From: the human T2T-CHM13v2.0 reference genome, Homo sapiens
Assembly (NCBI RefSeq): GCF_009914755.1
Contig: NC_060925.1
Direction: 5' to 3' (one strand)
Length of the DNA stretch: 64,000 bases
In this document: one piece after another, positions 29,365 to 51,600 of the stretch
Numbering within the stretch: the first letter of the stretch is position 1
Layout of the letters: the number at the start of each line of letters is the position of its first letter
Notes under the pieces: model-generated
What the model was told of the DNA's origin: nothing
What the model saw: only the letters and a program-made list of their open reading frames with translations
Database searches by the model: none
Program-made: the position numbers and the translations under genes

Positions 29365-29436
29365 GTTTTCATCCTGATTTTATAGGAGAAACTGAGATTC
29401 ACGGAAGTTAGGTAGCCTCCTTAAGATCACACAGCA
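29365..29436 (-). mobile_element. MIR fragment split by the L1 (continues at about 35514-35560)
   Basis: 'cctgattttataggagaaactgagattcacggaagttaggtagcctccttaagatcacacagc' is MIR core in reverse; it continues 'aagtgaatcacaaagtc' after the L1. Confidence 0.65.
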
Positions 29437-30354
29437 GAGGAGGAGCCAAGATGGCCGAATAGGAACAGCTCCGGTGAACAGCTCCGGTCTACAGCTCCCA
29501 GCGTGAGCAACGCAGAAGACGGGTGATTTCTGCATTTCCATCTGAGGTACCGGGTTCATCTCACTAGGGAGTGCCAGACAGTGTGCGCAGGCCAGTGTGT
29601 GTGCGCACCGTGCGCGAGCCGAAGCAGGGCGAGGCATTGCCTCACCTGGGAAGCGCAAGGGGTCAGGGAGTTCCCTTTCCGAGTCAAAGAAAGGGGTGAC
29701 GGACGCACCTGGAAAATCGGGTCACTCCCACCCGAATATTGCGCTTTTCAGACCGGCTTAAGAAACGGCGCACCACGAGACTATATCCCACACCTGGCTC
29801 AGAGGGTCCTACGCCCACGGAATCGCGCTGATTGCTAGCACAGCAGTCTGAGATCAAACTGCAAGGCGGCAACGAGGCTGGGGAAGGGGCGCCCGCCATT
29901 GCCCAGGCTTGCTTAGGTAAACAAAGCAGCCGGGAAGCTCGAACTGGGTGGAGCCCACCACAGCTCAAGGAGGCCTGCCTGCCTCTGTAGGCTCCACCTC
30001 TGGGGGCAGGGCACAGACAAACAAAAAGACAGCAGTAACCTCTGCAGACTTAAGTGTCCCTGTCTGACAGCTTTGAAGAGAGCAGTGGTTCTCCCAGCAC
30101 GCAGCTGGAGATCTGAGAACGGGCAGACTGCCTCCTCAAGTGGGTCCCTGACCCCTGACCCCCGGGCAGCCTAACTGGGAGGCACCCCCCAGCAGGGGCA
30201 CACTGACACCTCACACAGCAGGGTATTCCAACAGACCTGCAGCTGAGGGTCCTGTCTGTTAGAAGGAAAACTAACAACCAGAAAGGACATCTACACCGAA
30301 AACCCATCTGTACATCACCATCATCAAAGACCAAAAGTAGATAAAACCACAAAG
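29437..30354. promoter_or_regulatory. L1 5'UTR: CpG-rich internal sense promoter (intact YY1 site) and antisense promoter
   Basis: YY1 motif AAGATGGCC at 29448-29456; dense CpGs; 918-bp length fits the L1HS UTR plus a 13-bp duplication. Confidence 0.9.
29684..29899 (-). CDS. ORF0: L1 ORF0 (71 aa, antisense), open
   Basis: MAGAPSPASLPPCSLISDCCASNQRDSVGVGPSEPGVGY...RCVRHPFL; ATG corresponds to CAT at 29897-29899. Confidence 0.88.
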   Translation of the reverse strand: MAGAPSPASLPPCSLISDCCASNQRDSVGVGPSEPGVGYSLVVRRFLSRSEKRNIRVGVTRFSRCVRHPFL

Positions 30355-31371
30355 ATGGGGAAAAAACAGAACAGAAAAACTGGAAACTCTAAAACGCAGA
30401 GCGCCTCTCCTCCTCCAAAGGAACGCAGTTCCTCACCAGCAACAGAACAAAGCTGGATGGAGAATGATTTTGACGAGCTGAGAGAAGAAGGCTTCAGACG
30501 ATCAAATTACTCTGAGCTACGGGAGGACATTCAAACCAAAGGCAAAGAAGTTGAAAACTTCGAAAAAAATTTAGAAGAATGTATAACTAGAATAACCAAT
30601 ACAGAGAAGTGCTTAAAGGAGCTGATGGAGCTGAAAACCAAGGCTCGAGAACTACGTGAAGAATGCAGAAGCCTCAGGAGCCGATGCGATCAACTGGAAG
30701 AAAGCGTATCAGCAATGGAAGATGAAATGAATGAAATGAAGCGAGAAGGGAAGTTTAGAGAAAAAAGAATAAAAAGAAATGAGCAAAGCCTCCAAGAAAT
30801 ATGGGACTATGTGAAAAGACCAAATCTATGTCTGACTGGTGTACCTGAAAGTGATGTGGAGAATGGAACCAAGTTGGAAAACACTCTGCAGGATATTATC
30901 CAGGAGAACTTCCCCAATCTAGCAAGGCAGGCCAACGTTCAGATTCAGGAAATACAGAGAACGCCACAAAGATACTCCTCGAGAAGAGCAACTCCAAGAC
31001 ACATAATTGTCAGATTCACCAAAGTTGAAATGAAGGAAAAAATGTTAAGGGCAGCCAGAGAGAAAGGTCGGGTTACCCTCAAAGGAAAGCCCATCAGACT
31101 AACAGCGGATCTCTCGGCAGAAACCCTACAAGCCAGAAGAGAGTGGGGGCCAATATTCAACATTCTTAAAGAAAAGAATTTTCAACCCAGAATTTCATAT
31201 CCAGCCAAACTAAGCTTCATAAGTGAAGGAGAAATAAAATACTTTATAGACAAGCAAATGCTGAGAGATTTTGTCACCACCAGGCCTGCCCTAAAAGAGC
31301 TCCTGAAGGAAGCGCTAAACATGGAAAGGAACAACCGGTACCAGCCACTGCAAAATCATGCCAAAATGTAA
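30355..31371 (+). CDS. ORF1: L1 ORF1p RNA-binding chaperone, 338 aa, open (R117S, R159C, I161T vs recalled L1HS consensus)
   Basis: Full-length MGKKQNRKTG...QNHAKM with coiled coil, RRM and CTD. Confidence 0.97.
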   Translation: MGKKQNRKTGNSKTQSASPPPKERSSSPATEQSWMENDFDELREEGFRRSNYSELREDIQTKGKEVENFEKNLEECITRITNTEKCLKELMELKTKARELREECRSLRSRCDQLEESVSAMEDEMNEMKREGKFREKRIKRNEQSLQEIWDYVKRPNLCLTGVPESDVENGTKLENTLQDIIQENFPNLARQANVQIQEIQRTPQRYSSRRATPRHIIVRFTKVEMKEKMLRAAREKGRVTLKGKPIRLTADLSAETLQARREWGPIFNILKEKNFQPRISYPAKLSFISEGEIKYFIDKQMLRDFVTTRPALKELLKEALNMERNNRYQPLQNHAKM

Positions 31372-31419
31372 AGACCATCGAGACTAGGAAGAAACTGCAT
31401 GAACTAATGAGCAAAATAA

Positions 31420-35263
<3,844 letters not shown>

Positions 35264-35869
35264 ACAATGAGATCACATGGACACAGGAAGGGGAATATCA
35301 CACTCTGGGGACTGTGGTGGGGTTGGGGGAGGGGGGAGGGATAGCATTGGGAGATATACCTAATGCTAGATGACACGTTAGTGGGTGCAGCGCACCAGCA
35401 TGGCACATGTATACATATGTAACTAACCTGCACAATGTGCACATGTACCCTAACACTTAGAGTATAATAAAAAAAAAAAAAATTAAAAAAAAACAAAAAA
35501 AGATCACACAGCAAGTGAATCACAAAGTCAAATGCACACTGAAGTCTTAGGCAGCCCATTTTGATATGGTACTTCCAAACTGAGATGTGTAGGAATACAT
35601 TTTAAGAGAAAATATGAAAAAATTATAGACCTGAGACTAGGTGTGTGTACCTGGGGTTTTTAAAACTTTCTCATTATTCACAGCTAAGGAAAGGTCTTTT
35701 AAAAAATATCTAGTAAAATGATTATTTGAGGATTATCTAATACACAAAAAAGACAAAATTTCAACTTTTTTCACAGAATTTGTGGGTCCCTAAAAATATG
35801 GGTGAGAAGGTGGGATGAGAAACTGGCTTAATTTTTAAGTTTGTAGGAGTTGGAGTCAGACGAACTCTG

Positions 35870-46840: not shown

Positions 46841-48606
46841 ATTTTTTTCTAAGAAGCCCAACCATGGAAAGATCTTTTGATATAAATAACATACTGAAAA
46901 AATAATCTCACTATACCTATTCCCAATAAAACCTTTTCCAAAAACATGAAGTCAGAAAATATGCTATTACTGGATGCCACTAGGTACCACTTCTTAAAAT
47001 ATTTTGCATTCTACTATTCTTTGTTTGAGTAGATAAGAAAGGTACTGTGTCCTTTTAATTTATGAGGACTTCAACCAATAATTAGGGCAATGACCAAAAA
47101 AGGAAAGTAAGAACTTATCTAATCTTTACGTCAACCCATCAGGTGACATAGCTATATGGAAGTTACTTAATATCCTCATTAAAAGTGATAGAGAAAAGAA
47201 GATCAAAAAGTTTACTAGCAAGATTATGATCTCATATGAACCTGAGATTATATTAATCTGTAGAGGACAAAGGCATTAGTAGGAATCACACCTAATAAGT
47301 CTTTATAAGTTAAAAGAAAAATTAGATTCCCATGATGACTGGTTCTAATTATATTAATATGACACTCAACTTTGAGAGACTAACCCCTGTAAAATGGGAA
47401 ACTGTTATTAATCACAAAACTTAAACTTTGTGTGCATTAACTATAAAATGATTTTAAATAGACCACTCAATATGTTTCAGTTTGAGAGGTTATGAAAAAG
47501 TATTCTATAATTTGACCAGAAAGTGTTATATTATGAGATTCTTTAAATATATAATCATAGACTTGCTCAAACATGTTTCATTTTGGGGTGGGGGTAATTC
47601 ATAATCATCTAAAGCAATTTAAAGCATTTTTGATTGATTACAATTTGAGATAGAATTTTTTTTTTCATTTCTAAAACACTCAGTTTCTCAGATCAGCAAA
47701 TCCTGTTTTAGACTAAAATTTAGTGCCATTTCTGGAATGAGAGGAGAAAAAACTATTTAACTAACTTATACCTCTTTATGTGTAGGCAGCACCAACAAAT
47801 CCTTTAACTCAGCAGTTACAAGAAATCCCTATGAACTTTTCAAAGCTGAATAACTTTAGCATTTCCACTTTCTTCTTTAAATAGCCAGCAGCCAACATTC
47901 AGAATGAACTGCTAAATTCCTATATAACGAGAAAAAGGTTGTTTCTAATATCAATTGCTTTTATCTCGATTTCATGTCACTCAGAAATGTTCACAGTTGA
48001 AAACAACTTTTAAAAACACACTTAACAGCAATGGCCTATCTTTTCAAAGTATTTGTGGCTGAATTAGGAACAATCTGAAAATAAAGCCCAACAACTGAAA
48101 TAAGTCCTCTAACTTGATAGTTTCAAGAGACCAAAATCTCCTACTATAATATTGCAAGAGTAGAAGTATAGGTTTTCCCCTAGCTATTGTTCCCTTTAGA
48201 AGCACTAAATACCTTCTTGCTTCATAATGATTTTATAACAATGGAATACCAAGCCATAGTAAATAGTTTTTTAATAGCTACTCCAAAAGCCTTGTAAACT
48301 CTCTACAGCTCTGTTTGCAAAGGCATTGCAGAAGCTAATCACCTTGCAACTATTCTACAACGTGACACATATTTACCGCATATGCCCTACAGAATGAAAT
48401 CAAAGACGTAAACTTCAAATCAGGGTCAGATCACAAAATCCAACAGGAGGACATATCACAGATAGACGAGGACAAGTAACAGACATTAGAGCAGTACCGC
48501 AAGCATGCGGCCCATAATCAACTTGGTTTATTTCTATAATGATGAGAAGGTCTTGTTTAATGGAAAAGTACCCAGACATACTTTGAGAATGTATGTGGAT
48601 ACTGAC

Positions 48607-48648
48607 CTGGACTTGTGACAGGACTAGAGGTAGTAGGTTCAATAATTT
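48607..48648 (-). CDS. NEGR1: 42-nt cassette microexon (phase 1/1) encoding (Q)IIEPTTSSPVTSP(A); probable NEGR1 alternative stalk exon
   Basis: Minus strand: tttttcttttctttccttttccctttttgtAG | AAATTATTGAACCTACTACCTCTAGTCCTGTCACAAGTCCAG | GTcagt. Length divisible by 3, no stop in phase 1, Ser/Thr/Pro-rich. The peptide matches my recollection of NEGR1 isoforms ...PLN-QIIEPTTSSPVTSPA-PSTAQ... (not verified by search). Confidence 0.75.
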
Positions 48649-51600
48649 CTACAAAAAGGGAAAAGGAAAGAAAAGAAAAACATTTTGTGTATTAATCATA
48701 CATAAAAGACAAACACTCATGAGACAATCAACAGTCATGCAACATATACACAGATGGTCTTTGATATGAAGACTTCCCTGACCGTGGACACAATTGACCA
48801 AAATCCAATTTTATGAGGTTTACACAACACCCCATCACTGACTTTGATATTAGGCCATCTTTCATTCTGAGGCAACATTTAGGAGTCATTTCCATATCCT
48901 AGACTATAGCATCAAGCTCTGCTGTGCTAAGGTTAAAGACATGCCCTTAGAATTCCCAATCAACAGTTTATAAGGTTTTCTTATAGTAAAATATTAAAAC
49001 CTACATGTAGAATGTCTTCCTCTTAGAGGATGTCAGTTCCCTAAAAAGTCTTTCAATCATGTTGTTTCTTAATATGTTCTATAAATAAAAATCATTGATA
49101 AAGCTCAAATTGCCCCAAAATAACTTTTCAAAGGTAAAATCTCATTATTCACTAACATACCTCCAAACTTGGCCACATAGAGGACCAATTATATCTGCTT
49201 TTATGTTTTTGTGTAGAAAGTAAATATACACACACATGCACATATCCCTATACATCTCACACATATACACACAAACATGTACATGTTTTAAATTACCTGG
49301 AATATATTTGTGTGTCTACAAGGCACTGTTGGCTATGTCTCAGGCAAATCAAAGGATATCTGTGTCAGTGGAATATCAATATAATTTTCCAGCAAATATC
49401 TAACAAATAAATTCTATGGTATTTTAAACAATGTATATAGTTGTATTTAAGATTTCTATTTTTAAACTTATCTTCTTAATAGAATTGTTTCTTTTGAAGT
49501 GTTAAATGATGGTGATAATAAAAGTACCAGTGATACAAAGACTAAACACCATCACTGGCAATGCTAAAGGATATTAACAATTTTTCATAAGGAATAAAGC
49601 AAATACCAGAAAAACATTGCATTTTTGAGAAACTCTAATGTAGTAGCCTGAGATCCTTAATTCAGCACTCATTTCACATAAATAATCTACTCCTTTTTAA
49701 CTTAGTTAATAAGGAAATTCTATAATAGTAAGAAAACCAGATTAGATTCTTAAAACTTCACACAGCGAGTGTGGCAGTGGGAAGTAAAAGCAAAGATTCT
49801 TATGTAAAATCTTGCCTTGGGACTCTCCTCTGTTCAACTATGTTCCCATGACATACAAGAAATGTTGCTGAGCAAAAAACATGCAAACAAACAAAACTAC
49901 AACCCCTCCCTCTTTAAAAAAAATTTCCAGTCCCTTTGGAACTCTTGGTTTTTCTCTGAAAAGGCAGTGGCAATGACCTATTCCAGTTAATAGTGAACTC
50001 ACATTCCTTCCTTTTTAGTCGAACTATTGGTTTGAATAATAAAACCCTAGTTTAGCAGTAGTTATAAAATAAGCTGTCCAAAAGACATCTTTTGTGGGTA
50101 TGTGGGAGACTAAAGTTTACATGTGTCCCGTTCTGCAGGGCTGATTCTTTGGGCCCTTTTCTGACTGTTCTGGGCCATGGATCATGCTGCCTAGCTGACA
50201 GCCAACAGGATCATAGTCTAAGTTACAACAGATCTGGCATGAAAGAATATACTTTTGAAGAAAGATACTCTCAAATGGAAAATAATTAATTGCATAACAA
50301 GCTACAATTAAAAATTCAAAAGTCCAGTCATCTATCAGACATTGCAATTTGTTGTTATTGAGAAGTAGAATCTTACTAAGGAGAGTCTGTATTAGACTAC
50401 TTAACGATGTGAGAATTATTCCATTTTCCATTTGCAAGGATAGCAATTATTATATTCACAAATAATATTTAAATTCCTTGTATGTGTCAAGCAATATTCT
50501 AGGAGCTGAAATCATAGGAGCTAATAAAACAGTTAGAAATGCCAGGCCTCATGGGGCTTATTGACTATAAAATGTCAGGTTTCAAAATGTGAGAGCATTC
50601 TTATCCCCAAATTCCATTATTTATAAAAATTTAACAAAATTTTAAATAAAAAATTATATCAGAGAAATGATGTTCTAATGAACACTGTCCTTTTGGTGGG
50701 CTAGCAATAGTCTCTTAAAATTTTTTTGTGACTATTATACTTTTATTTTTAAAAATGAACTTCAAAATAATTAAAATTTATGTTAAATTAGTTTAATGCT
50801 ATATAATACATCGTAATTTATAGAGTATGCACTCAAATGAAAACATTTTATAATTCAAAAAAATGAAAGCATAAAATGGCTTGAAAGGTAGAAGTTTAAT
50901 CAGAATATTTATTGATGGGAAAACTAAATTTAATGGGACAGTGAACAGGCTTTTCTATGTTCCGTAACTTGGACATGTGATCTTCAATTTCCTCGACTGT
51001 TTGGCTCCCATTGTTTTGAATTTCTAATGCTGATTTGAGAGTTCATTGAAAAAGACGGGTGGCATACAACTACAACTTCATCTCAATAAAAGGATAGTAG
51101 AAACAAATAGCTATCCCAATGAACCAAGCTCTTCTTTGTACTTGCTTATGTAGAGCTAAATTGCTTATGTAAAGCCACATTGTCTCATAGAAAGGCTTTT
51201 AAAAGAATACAGGAATTTACTGCATAAAAAATTATGTTGCGTGCAGGATCCACTCTATAATTTCAGCTTCACAGTCAATCCAAGATTTTTTTCCCCACGT
51301 AGGCCAAGATAAAGTAGAATTCCTGGCGAGGTAATTTTATGTAAAACAAGAATTGAGAATAGAGAAGTTGGTTGAGTTGGAGATTCATGGTTGCACACAG
51401 GGCTAGATGAGGATGAAGCAGAAGAGAAACCAAAGTGAGATCAAAACAAAGAGATTTGGAAAAGCTGGTGCTACAGGCAGTAGATGATGACAGTCAGCTA
51501 GATTCCTTGATGTGAGATAGTTCAGTGAGTTAGAAAGGACTCAGATAAAATAGGGATCAGATCTTAAACCTAACTAATTATTTCACTGCATGGTAGAAAG

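What the first reader, a model, noticed from the sequence alone, without database searches (positions are those of the whole stretch)
48607..48648. Hidden 42-nt microexon adding a mucin-like spacer, probably in NEGR1
Seen: a ~28-nt pure pyrimidine tract, an AG-free zone of ~65 nt, a branch-point-like TTAAT (~48691-48696), TAG acceptor and CAG|GTCAGT donor around 42 nt that read xIIEPTTSSPVTSPx in phase 1. It lies in a long stretch with few recognisable repeats and is invisible to the ORF track. Recalled: canonical NEGR1 reads ...PLN|PPSTAQ... across a phase-1 junction before the GPI-signal exon; inserting this exon gives PLN-QIIEPTTSSPVTSPA-PSTAQ, which I remember from predicted isoforms. Inference: a switchable 14-aa O-glycosylatable stalk between Ig3 and the GPI anchor that could change reach across the synaptic cleft or metalloprotease shedding. 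It is absent from the canonical protein and I know of little functional study.
Basis: partly seen in the sequence, partly recalled or inferred. Interest (0 to 1): 0.8.

Follow-up and report, generated by a model that had tools for sequence, protein, structure and literature searches.

The report
Known alternative stalk exon of NEGR1
This is a real, deeply conserved 42-base optional exon of the brain adhesion gene NEGR1 that lengthens the tether between the protein and its membrane anchor, but it was already reported in 2025 and its function is still untested.

Summary
On the minus strand, 48648..48607 is a 42-nt, phase-1/phase-1 exon. It has a 28-nt pyrimidine tract, a 65-nt AG-free zone, a TAG acceptor and a CAG|GTCAGT donor.

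The window lies wholly in NEGR1 intron 6. Splicing the exon between exons 6 and 7 gives PLN-QIIEPTTSSPVTSPA-PSTAQ.

It is not new. Genome Biol 2025;26:298 reports this 42-nt exon: Sanger-validated in human brain, 5.1% of NEGR1 TPM, giving a 368-aa protein. Predicted NEGR1 isoforms of mammals, birds, turtle, lizard, caecilian and frogs carry the same 14 residues, and six positions are always Ser or Thr.

I add two points:
- It is the NEGR1 member of a paralogous set of stalk micro-exons in LSAMP and NTM. All start with AA and share the rare donor G|GTCAGTAT.
- Gene models in nine species read through the donor to a C-terminus without the GPI signal.

The proposed function is inferred, not shown: a longer, probably O-glycosylated stalk that changes reach or ADAM10 shedding.

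Verdict: real, ordinary in kind, already known. Interest is low to moderate.

The parts
48607..48648 (-). 42-nt alternative cassette exon of NEGR1. It is phase 1 at both ends and encodes (Q)IIEPTTSSPVTSP(A).
   Evidence: for the sequence and frame. It matches the 42-nt exon of PMC12455821 in coordinates. The same peptide is in 36 of 131 held NEGR1 proteins.
48649..48650 (-). Acceptor AG, in the context TGTAG|A.
48653..48680 (-). 28-nt uninterrupted polypyrimidine tract. It holds two UCUU motifs.
48651..48715 (-). 65-nt AG-free zone upstream of the acceptor.
   Evidence: AG-free length 65.
48691..48695 (-). Branch-point-like TTAAT (fits yUnAy; candidate branch A at 48692, 43 nt before the exon).
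   Evidence: This is a sequence match only and was not tested.
48601..48606 (-). Donor GTCAGT, with the unusual C at +3. The extended form G|GTCAGTAT is shared with the LSAMP and NTM stalk exons.
48557..48606 (-). Read-through frame if the donor is not used: GQYPHTFSKYVWVLFH, then stop at 48559-48557. It would give a C-terminus without the GPI signal.
   Evidence: Homologous read-through gene models exist in 9 other species.
48567..48603 (-). Predicted hairpin that pairs intron positions +4 to +10 of the donor with downstream sequence.
   Evidence: -14.3 kcal/mol, z -4.0, 0 of 200 shuffles as stable. But 4.1% of all 53-nt windows and 4.9% of GT-anchored windows of this strand fold as well. Weak evidence.
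48527..48532 (-). AATAAA hexamer 75 nt after the donor. A possible poly(A) signal, probably chance.
   Evidence: The background rate on this strand is 1.05 per kb.

Best explanation
This is a genuine alternative cassette exon of NEGR1, lying in intron 6. Inclusion is low in adult human brain. It is conserved across tetrapods.

Shown:
- When included, it replaces the junction codon for Pro314 with 15 residues, QIIEPTTSSPVTSPA, a net gain of 14.
- The insert lies between the end of the third Ig domain (N313) and the GPI attachment residue (G324). The unstructured stalk grows from about 10 to about 24 residues.
- It adds six invariably hydroxylated residues and three prolines.

Well supported: it is the NEGR1 copy of an old IgLON-family module. 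LSAMP and NTM have a paralogous first stalk micro-exon at the same phase-1 junction. That exon also starts with AA and uses the same weak donor, G|GTCAGTAT.

Inferred, about 40% likely: the insert is O-glycosylated and acts as a stiff spacer. It would change how far the Ig domains stand from the membrane and how readily ADAM10 sheds NEGR1, as juxtamembrane alternative exons do in CADM1 and UNC5B.

Inferred, about 25% likely: the weak donor also allows a third outcome. Read-through to an intronic 3' end would give a soluble NEGR1 without the GPI signal.
For: Anatomy and chance control.

Place in the gene:
- The paper's primers map to exon 6 (C1:71470637-56) and exon 7 (C1:71285238-57).
- The in-silico amplicon is 86+68 = 154 nt without the exon and 196 nt with it, as in Table S7 of the paper.

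Identity with the published exon:
- The T2T-to-hg38 offset is 122,259 for this exon.
- It is 122,266 at the gene's 3' end and 122,236 at the paper's 58-nt exon, which I located and which reads HKKEVSS-stop as published.

Expression (PMC12455821; main-text section, Table 1 and supplementary tables read): Sanger-validated, 5.1% of TPM, 368 aa, 'high 100 vertebrate conservation'.

Conservation:
- All 36 proteins with E<=0.001 among 136 candidates carry the insert.
- Overall 36 of 131 held NEGR1 proteins have it, always 14 residues long.
- Positions 6, 7, 8, 9, 12 and 13 are Ser or Thr in 36 of 36.
- The taxa are squirrel, many birds, turtle, lizard, caecilian and 8 frogs.
- Similarity stops at the donor. 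The mammalian read-through (GQYPHTF...) and the bird read-through (GWISEKG...) are unrelated.

Paralogy:
- All five human IgLON genes end the Ig3 exon in phase 1.
- LSAMP isoforms carry KRVLPTIPHPIQ and EIGTTVHFKQK. The human exons were located.
- A blind scan of the NTM last intron found ELNEPTSSTLLQ and EVKTTALTPWK. Both were later confirmed in predicted NTM proteins P0303, P0312 and P0300.
- GGTCAGTAT occurs at 4 distinct sites in about 700 kb of held sequence, and 3 of them are these donors.

Shedding context:
- NEGR1 is an ADAM10 substrate (review PMC10606101, passages; table row in PMC4786429).
- CADM1 and UNC5B are the precedents (abstracts).
Against: - Inclusion is only 5.1% of TPM in adult human brain.
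- I found no peptide, glycopeptide or functional data. The peptide string is in 0 papers.
- The LSAMP paralogue has only one Thr, so the family-wide property may be linker length or proline content rather than O-glycans.
- No insert-bearing fish protein appeared, and sturgeon P0067 lacks it.
- OPCML and IGLON5 gave no counterpart.
- Flanking RBFOX-type motifs and the AATAAA are at background frequency.
- The cross-species proteins are mostly automated gene models. These can borrow from each other, although each genome must still encode the peptide.
Confidence: 0.8

Rival explanations
1. The main use of this sequence is as a composite alternative last exon. The acceptor is used, the weak donor is ignored, and the transcript ends in the intron. 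The product is a secreted NEGR1 without a GPI signal. The cassette form is a minor by-product.
For: - 10 of the 36 insert-bearing proteins continue past the donor (...TSPGQYPHTF[ST]KYVWVLF...). They come from marmoset, squirrel, mole, mouse, rat, sheep, duck and a flycatcher.
- The LSAMP and NTM paralogues show the same read-through, starting GQY.
- Mouse Negr1 is stated to have two RefSeq transcripts with alternative 3' ends (PMC5288359, passage).
- The human amplicon study primed in the 3' UTR of exon 7, so it could not see such ends.
- A secreted IgLON isoform, CEPU-Se, is known. I saw only its title in a reference list.
Against: - The read-through frame stops after 16 codons in human, 24 in marmoset and squirrel, and 56 to 79 in mole, rat and mouse. 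There is no mammal-bird similarity. This looks like conserved intron rather than coding sequence.
- Such models can arise from pre-mRNA reads.
- The human AATAAA at +75 is at chance frequency.
- 26 of the 36 proteins splice on to exon 7.
- I could not confirm which mouse transcript carries which 3' end.
Confidence: 0.25
2. It is a passive linker. The exon is real and conserved but only adds length and proline stiffness. It is not glycosylated and has no effect on shedding.
For: - The LSAMP paralogue KRVLPTIPHPIQ is proline-rich with a single Thr.
- All paralogues add 11 to 14 residues at the same point.
Against: In NEGR1 six positions stay Ser or Thr in 36 of 36 proteins and exchange only with each other. 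This points to selection on the hydroxyl groups.
Confidence: 0.3
3. It is a chance pseudo-exon or splicing noise with no function.
For: Inclusion is low (5.1% of TPM). It was absent from the catalogue the authors used: tx1 is classed novel_not_in_catalog, and Fig. S14 names GENCODE V44 and RefSeq RS_2023_03 as its annotation tracks.
Against: - The 14 residues are near-identical from human to caecilian and frogs, with a constant length.
- Conservation ends exactly at the donor.
- The exon is unique in the window scan.
- Paralogous exons exist in LSAMP and NTM.

Confidence: 0.02

Closest known systems
NEGR1 'novel exon' of 42 nt (hg38 chr1:71,532,866-71,532,907) in PMC12455821, Genome Biol 2025;26:298
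   Same: It is the same exon. Size, intron, GT/AG sites, frame retention, amplicon sizes and mapped coordinates all agree.
   Different: Nothing differs in substance. The paper labels it 6a in Table 1 but 6b in its supplement. It gives no paralogue comparison and no functional test.
LSAMP and NTM stalk micro-exons: A (36 nt) and B (33 nt), between the Ig3 exon and the GPI-signal exon
   Same: - The position is the same and the exon is phase 1 at both ends.
- The exon starts with AA and the donor is G|GTCAGTAT.
- Read-through forms start GQY.
- NTM A reads ELNEPTSST against NEGR1 IIEPTTSS.

   Different: - The NEGR1 exon is 6 nt longer and richer in Ser/Thr.
- Amniote NEGR1 shows no B exon. Xenopus and Ascaphus NEGR1 have a second insert of about 19 residues.
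- LSAMP forms with both inserts carry a curated-style name: mouse 'isoform 4 precursor', P0149.
Juxtamembrane alternative exons that set shedding: CADM1 exons 8/9 (PMC5385562), UNC5B (PMC12480741), ALCAM (PMC5816644, search listing only)
   Same: Each is a short optional exon in the stalk of an Ig-superfamily adhesion protein that is a sheddase substrate. In CADM1, O-glycans next to the cleavage site block shedding (abstract).
   Different: Those proteins are transmembrane, while NEGR1 is GPI-anchored. Isoform-dependent shedding of NEGR1 has not been tested.
SRRM4-type neural microexons (definition recalled, not from a call)
   Same: It is a short, frame-preserving, brain-expressed exon with a strong pyrimidine tract and conserved flanks.
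   Different: It is 42 nt rather than 27 nt or less. There is no UGC motif between the pyrimidine tract and the AG; the nearest TGC is at -93.

Membership tests
Published NEGR1 42-nt alternative exon (PMC12455821) | Same genomic place | tested here: met
   The T2T-to-hg38 offset is 122,259 at both ends of the exon. It falls between 122,266 (gene 3' end) and 122,236 (the paper's 58-nt exon).
Published NEGR1 42-nt alternative exon (PMC12455821) | 42 nt, GT/AG, keeps the frame, lies between exons 6 and 7, amplicon 196 against 154 nt | tested here: met
   86+68 = 154 nt, and 196 nt with the 42-nt exon.
Published NEGR1 42-nt alternative exon (PMC12455821) | Present in spliced brain mRNA | not testable with these tools
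   Taken from the paper: Sanger validation and 5.1% of TPM. No read data are available here.
IgLON stalk 'A' micro-exon (LSAMP, NTM) | First optional exon after the Ig3 exon, phase 1 at both ends | tested here: met
IgLON stalk 'A' micro-exon (LSAMP, NTM) | Starts with AA and uses the donor G|GTCAGTAT | tested here: met
   One search shows the contexts. In one search, 3 of the 4 distinct GGTCAGTAT sites in about 700 kb are these donors.
IgLON stalk 'A' micro-exon (LSAMP, NTM) | Recognisable peptide similarity | tested here: inconclusive
   The E-P-T-(T)-S-S core is shared with NTM. With LSAMP only P-T and P are shared. The exons are too short for statistics.
Neural microexon (SRRM4 class; criteria recalled) | Length of 27 nt or less | tested here: not met
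   The exon is 42 nt. It meets only the looser limit of 51 nt or less.
Neural microexon (SRRM4 class; criteria recalled) | UGC motif close upstream of the acceptor | tested here: not met
   The nearest upstream TGC is at -93.
Mucin-like O-glycosylated stalk | Ser/Thr/Pro-rich, with conserved hydroxyl residues | tested here: met
   9 of 14 residues are S, T or P. Six positions are S or T in 36 of 36 proteins.
Mucin-like O-glycosylated stalk | O-glycans actually attached | not testable with these tools
   No predictor or glycoproteome is available here. The peptide is in 0 papers.
Shedding-tuning juxtamembrane exon (CADM1, UNC5B type) | Lies in the stalk of a sheddase substrate | tested here: met
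   The insert is 10 residues before the GPI attachment residue G324. NEGR1 is an ADAM10 substrate by the literature.
Shedding-tuning juxtamembrane exon (CADM1, UNC5B type) | Isoforms differ in shedding | not tested
   This needs an experiment.

The most novel reading that the evidence does not exclude
The exon is one arm of an ancient three-way switch shared by IgLON genes. A deliberately weak, conserved GTCAGTAT donor lets each cell choose among three outcomes:
- skip the exon, giving a short-stalk GPI form;
- include it, giving a long, O-glycosylated, shedding-altered GPI form;
- read through it, giving a soluble form without the anchor.

For NEGR1 this choice would set the pool of soluble protein that signals through FGFR2, independently of ADAM10.
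Probability: 0.15. Interest if true: 0.6.

Novelty: already known. Interest (0 to 1): 0.3.

Why it matters
NEGR1 is a leading GWAS gene for depression, obesity and other traits. Its soluble, shed form is thought to act on neurons. An optional stalk segment next to the anchor is a plausible control point for reach and release.

A 2026 preprint still describes the gene as having 7 exons, and I found no functional study. The practical value here is modest:
- The exon is confirmed.
- It is tied to the published report.
- It is shown to belong to a family-wide stalk-exon module, which suggests simple isoform-specific experiments.

Tried and rejected
I searched with the exon-6 translation and with a region of a found isoform instead.
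- Earlier findings were not open.
- The amphibian second insert (KYSVKHY...) has no credible match in the window or in the rest of intron 6 down to exon 7. A 7-residue match in L012 lies upstream of the exon, in the wrong order, at E 0.2, and I take it as chance.
- The lax splice scan found no exon-B-like candidate in human NEGR1.
- OPCML and IGLON5 gave no A-exon counterpart in 121.5 kb and 10 kb. One weak hit had no splice sites.
- Rfam gave no hit in the window.
- The 161-nt fold around the exon is unremarkable, z -0.47. The donor hairpin looks strong against shuffles but sits only in the 4-5% tail of real windows and is not shared by the paralogues.
- RBFOX-type GCAUG, TGCATG and AATAAA near the exon are at background rates.
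- MAFFT put the 6-nt length difference at the 3' end, so its column marks understate the shared donor.
- The neurotractin paper (PMC2133198) and the mouse IgLON structure paper (PMC5288359) do not describe this insert in the passages I searched.

Full report
**1. What is in the sequence**

On the minus strand the window reads a 28-nt uninterrupted pyrimidine run (48680-48653), then GT, then the acceptor AG (48650-48649). Forty-two bases follow (48648-48607), then GTCAGT.

- The nearest upstream AG is 65 nt away, and a yUnAy-like TTAAT lies at 48695-48691.
- The donor matches 8 of 9 consensus positions; the mismatch is C at +3.
- In phase 1 the exon reads (x)IIEPTTSSPVTSP(x).

**2. Is it more than chance?**

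I scanned both strands of the window for AG...GT intervals of 9-120 nt. They had to be a multiple of three long, open in phase 1, and pass thresholds on pyrimidine content, pyrimidine run, AG-free zone and donor match.

- This exon was the only hit at its own values and at two relaxed settings: 1 on minus, 0 on plus.
- At very lax settings there were 6 on minus and 3 on plus.
- The thresholds were set after seeing the exon, so this is a descriptive control.

An independent test is stronger. The first insert peptides of two frog NEGR1 proteins, searched by tblastn against all 64 kb, hit only this exon (E 5e-7; next best 0.9).

**3. Where it lies**

The held genome is the window's own assembly.

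- The exon-6 and exon-7 primers of PMC12455821 (Table S7) map once each, at C1:71470637-56 (minus) and C1:71285238-57 (plus).
- The window therefore lies entirely inside intron 6. Exon 6 is about 60 kb upstream of the exon and exon 7 about 125 kb downstream.
- Exon 6 ends ...CTG CCT CTT AAC C|gtaagt. Exon 7 begins ag|CT CCA AGT ACA GCC CAG.
- Inserting the 42 nt gives PLN-QIIEPTTSSPVTSPA-PSTAQ.
- The paper places the GPI attachment residue at G324. The insert therefore sits 10 residues before the anchor and takes the stalk from about 10 to about 24 residues.

**4. It is already in print**

A search for NEGR1 plus microexon found one paper, PMC12455821 (Genome Biol 2025;26:298). I read its NEGR1 passages, section 10, Table 1 and the searchable supplements. 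The figures themselves are not held.

What the paper reports:
- Nanopore amplicon sequencing of human brain found a novel 42-nt exon at hg38 chr1:71,532,866-71,532,907, between exons 6 and 7.
- It is GT/AG, frame-retaining and Sanger-validated, with 'high 100 vertebrate conservation'.
- It lies in transcript Tx1, which is 5.1% of TPM and encodes 368 aa.
- A second exon of 58 nt carries a premature stop (9.4% of TPM).

How I tied it to this window:
- My in-silico amplicon is 86+68 = 154 nt without the exon and 196 nt with it. These are the paper's sizes.
- The T2T-to-hg38 offset is 122,259 for both ends of this exon.
- The offset is 122,266 at the gene's 3' end (Table S3 against the hub's gene span).
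- The offset is 122,236 for the 58-nt exon. I found that exon at C1:71,465,107-164. It reads HKKEVSS-stop with 35 nt left after the stop, as published.
- The identification is therefore secure.

The paper calls the 42-nt exon 6a in Table 1 but 6b in its supplement. The authors classed it as not in the catalogue; Fig. S14 shows GENCODE V44 and RefSeq RS_2023_03 tracks. The hub lists 4 RefSeq transcripts and shows only one, so I cannot say whether the current RefSeq holds the exon.

**5. Conservation**

*First search.* I searched the 5.8-billion-protein collection with the exon-6 translation. It gave 190 hits with E<=0.001 among 199 candidates, of which 120 were listed. Among the 120:
- 16 carry the insert spliced on to exon 7.
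- 9 carry it followed by read-through of the donor.
- The rest are canonical or fragmentary.

*Second search.* This one was restricted to 42 residues around the insert of a squirrel isoform. It returned 36 proteins with E<=0.001 among 136 candidates, and all 36 have the insert.

*Taken together.* 36 of 131 held NEGR1 proteins have the insert, and it is always 14 residues long.
- Taxa: squirrel, many birds, a turtle, a lizard cluster of 113 members, a caecilian and eight frogs.
- Human QIIEPTTSSPVTSP is identical to 10 clusters. Birds differ by T12S.
- Positions 6, 7, 8, 9, 12 and 13 are Ser or Thr in all 36 and exchange only with each other.
- Q1, I2, T7, S9, V11 and S13 never vary.

*Where similarity ends.* It ends at the donor. 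The mammalian read-through peptides (GQYPHTF...) and the one bird read-through (GWISEKG...) are unrelated.

*Limits.*
- No fish protein with the insert appeared, and sturgeon P0067 lacks it. Because of how candidates are chosen, this is weak evidence of absence.
- Most of these proteins are automated models.

**6. A family-wide module**

All five human IgLON genes end the Ig3 exon in phase 1.

*LSAMP* (255 hits among 270 candidates, 120 listed):
- The proteins show two optional inserts at this junction: A, KRVLPT[IVT]PHPIQ, and B, EIGTTVHFKQK.
- They occur together, singly or not at all, from mammals to frogs.
- One cluster with both inserts is named mouse 'isoform 4 precursor'.
- I located the human exons at 36 nt and 33 nt.

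*NTM:*
- The same blind splice scan on the 121.5 kb between NTM and OPCML picked out a 36-nt exon, ELNEPTSSTLLQ, and a 33-nt exon, EVKTTALTPWK, in the NTM last intron.
- Both were then confirmed in predicted NTM proteins. P0303 and P0312 have both exons, and P0300 has A followed by read-through. These were among 15 proteins fetched.

*Shared features of the three A exons:*
- All start with AA and end ...CAAG or ...CCAG|GTCAGTAT.
- GGTCAGTAT occurs 5 times in 708,610 nt of held sequence counting both strands. That is 4 distinct sites, and 3 of them are these donors.
- NTM A and NEGR1 share the core E-P-T-(T)-S-S.

*Gaps:*
- OPCML and IGLON5 gave no counterpart.
- Xenopus and Ascaphus NEGR1 have a second insert of about 19 residues after the first. 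It has no credible match in human intron 6.

**7. How it probably works**

*Shown.* The exon adds 14 residues rich in Ser, Thr and Pro, immediately before the anchor.

*From the literature.*
- NEGR1 is released by ADAM10 (review PMC10606101, passages).
- Its level in the secretome of ADAM10-deficient neurons falls to 0.23 (PMC4786429, table row).
- In CADM1, alternative juxtamembrane exons and nearby O-glycans decide whether the protein is shed (PMC5385562, abstract). The same group reports this for UNC5B and other proteins (PMC12480741, abstract).

*Inferred.* The NEGR1 insert is an O-glycosylated spacer that changes reach and shedding. The strict Ser/Thr conservation favours this reading. 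The Thr-poor LSAMP paralogue argues that length alone may be what matters.

*Regulation is open.*
- There is no UGC motif near the acceptor.
- GCAUG and TGCATG occur at background rates.
- Two UCUU motifs lie in the pyrimidine tract.
- A hairpin pairs donor positions +4 to +10 and is stable against shuffles (z -4.0). It lies only in the 4-5% tail of real windows and is not shared by the paralogues.

**8. Second mode**

Ten of the 36 proteins, from eight species, read through the donor, and the LSAMP and NTM A exons do the same. In human the frame would end after GQYPHTFSKYVWVLFH (stop at 48559-48557), with no GPI signal.

PMC5288359 states that mouse Negr1 has two RefSeq transcripts with alternative 3' ends and leaves them unstudied. 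I could not check which one this is.

The variable stop position and the lack of mammal-bird similarity suggest conserved intron rather than coding sequence. I therefore keep this as a rival or additional mode at about 25%.

**9. Verdict**

Literature searches for further reports found nothing more on this exon:
- NEGR1 plus cassette exon: 3 papers, none describing it further.
- The peptide string: 0 papers.
- IgLON splicing and gene-structure searches.

A 2026 zebrafish preprint still describes 7 exons. Function remains untested.

Noticed in passing
G000 C1:71,465,107-71,465,164 (L012 5107-5164, minus strand), outside the window: This is the paper's second NEGR1 intron-6 exon (58 nt). It reads HKKEVSS-stop in phase 1, with 35 nt left after the stop, and would give a NEGR1 without the GPI signal.
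   Followed up: partly
L023 2969-3004 and C11:132,368,672-704 (NTM last intron): A blind splice scan predicted two NTM stalk micro-exons, ELNEPTSSTLLQ and EVKTTALTPWK. Both were later found in predicted NTM proteins P0303 and P0312. The second resembles LSAMP EIGTTVHFKQK.
   Followed up: yes
P0078 (Xenopus) and P0133 (Ascaphus) NEGR1: Frog NEGR1 carries a second insert of about 19 residues (KYSVKHYARSSSDKPHYA or similar) after the conserved 14. No credible human counterpart exists between the 42-nt exon and exon 7.
   Followed up: partly
L037 (G000 C7:65,776,001-65,779,000), minus strand about 1028-1947: An intronless IgLON-like copy on chromosome 7 has a 256-aa open frame. It is 96% identical in DNA to the IGLON5 Ig3 exon over exactly that exon's 153 nt. 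It looks like a young processed copy of IGLON5.
   Followed up: partly
window 48567-48603, minus strand: A 13-bp hairpin overlaps intron positions +4 to +10 of the donor. The one residue that differs between the human read-through peptide and most of the other mammalian ones (marmoset matches human) falls in its loop. It is only in the 4-5% tail of real windows.
   Followed up: partly
window about 33757-33846, minus strand (inside the masked block 29434-35518): A 90-nt open, splice-site-flanked stretch (…[29 protein letters not shown]) recurs three times in the chromosome 11 NTM-OPCML interval. It is an interspersed repeat, not an exon.
   Followed up: no
PMC12455821, Table 1 against its supplementary files: The paper's labels 6a and 6b for the two NEGR1 exons are swapped between the main table and the supplement.
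   Followed up: yes
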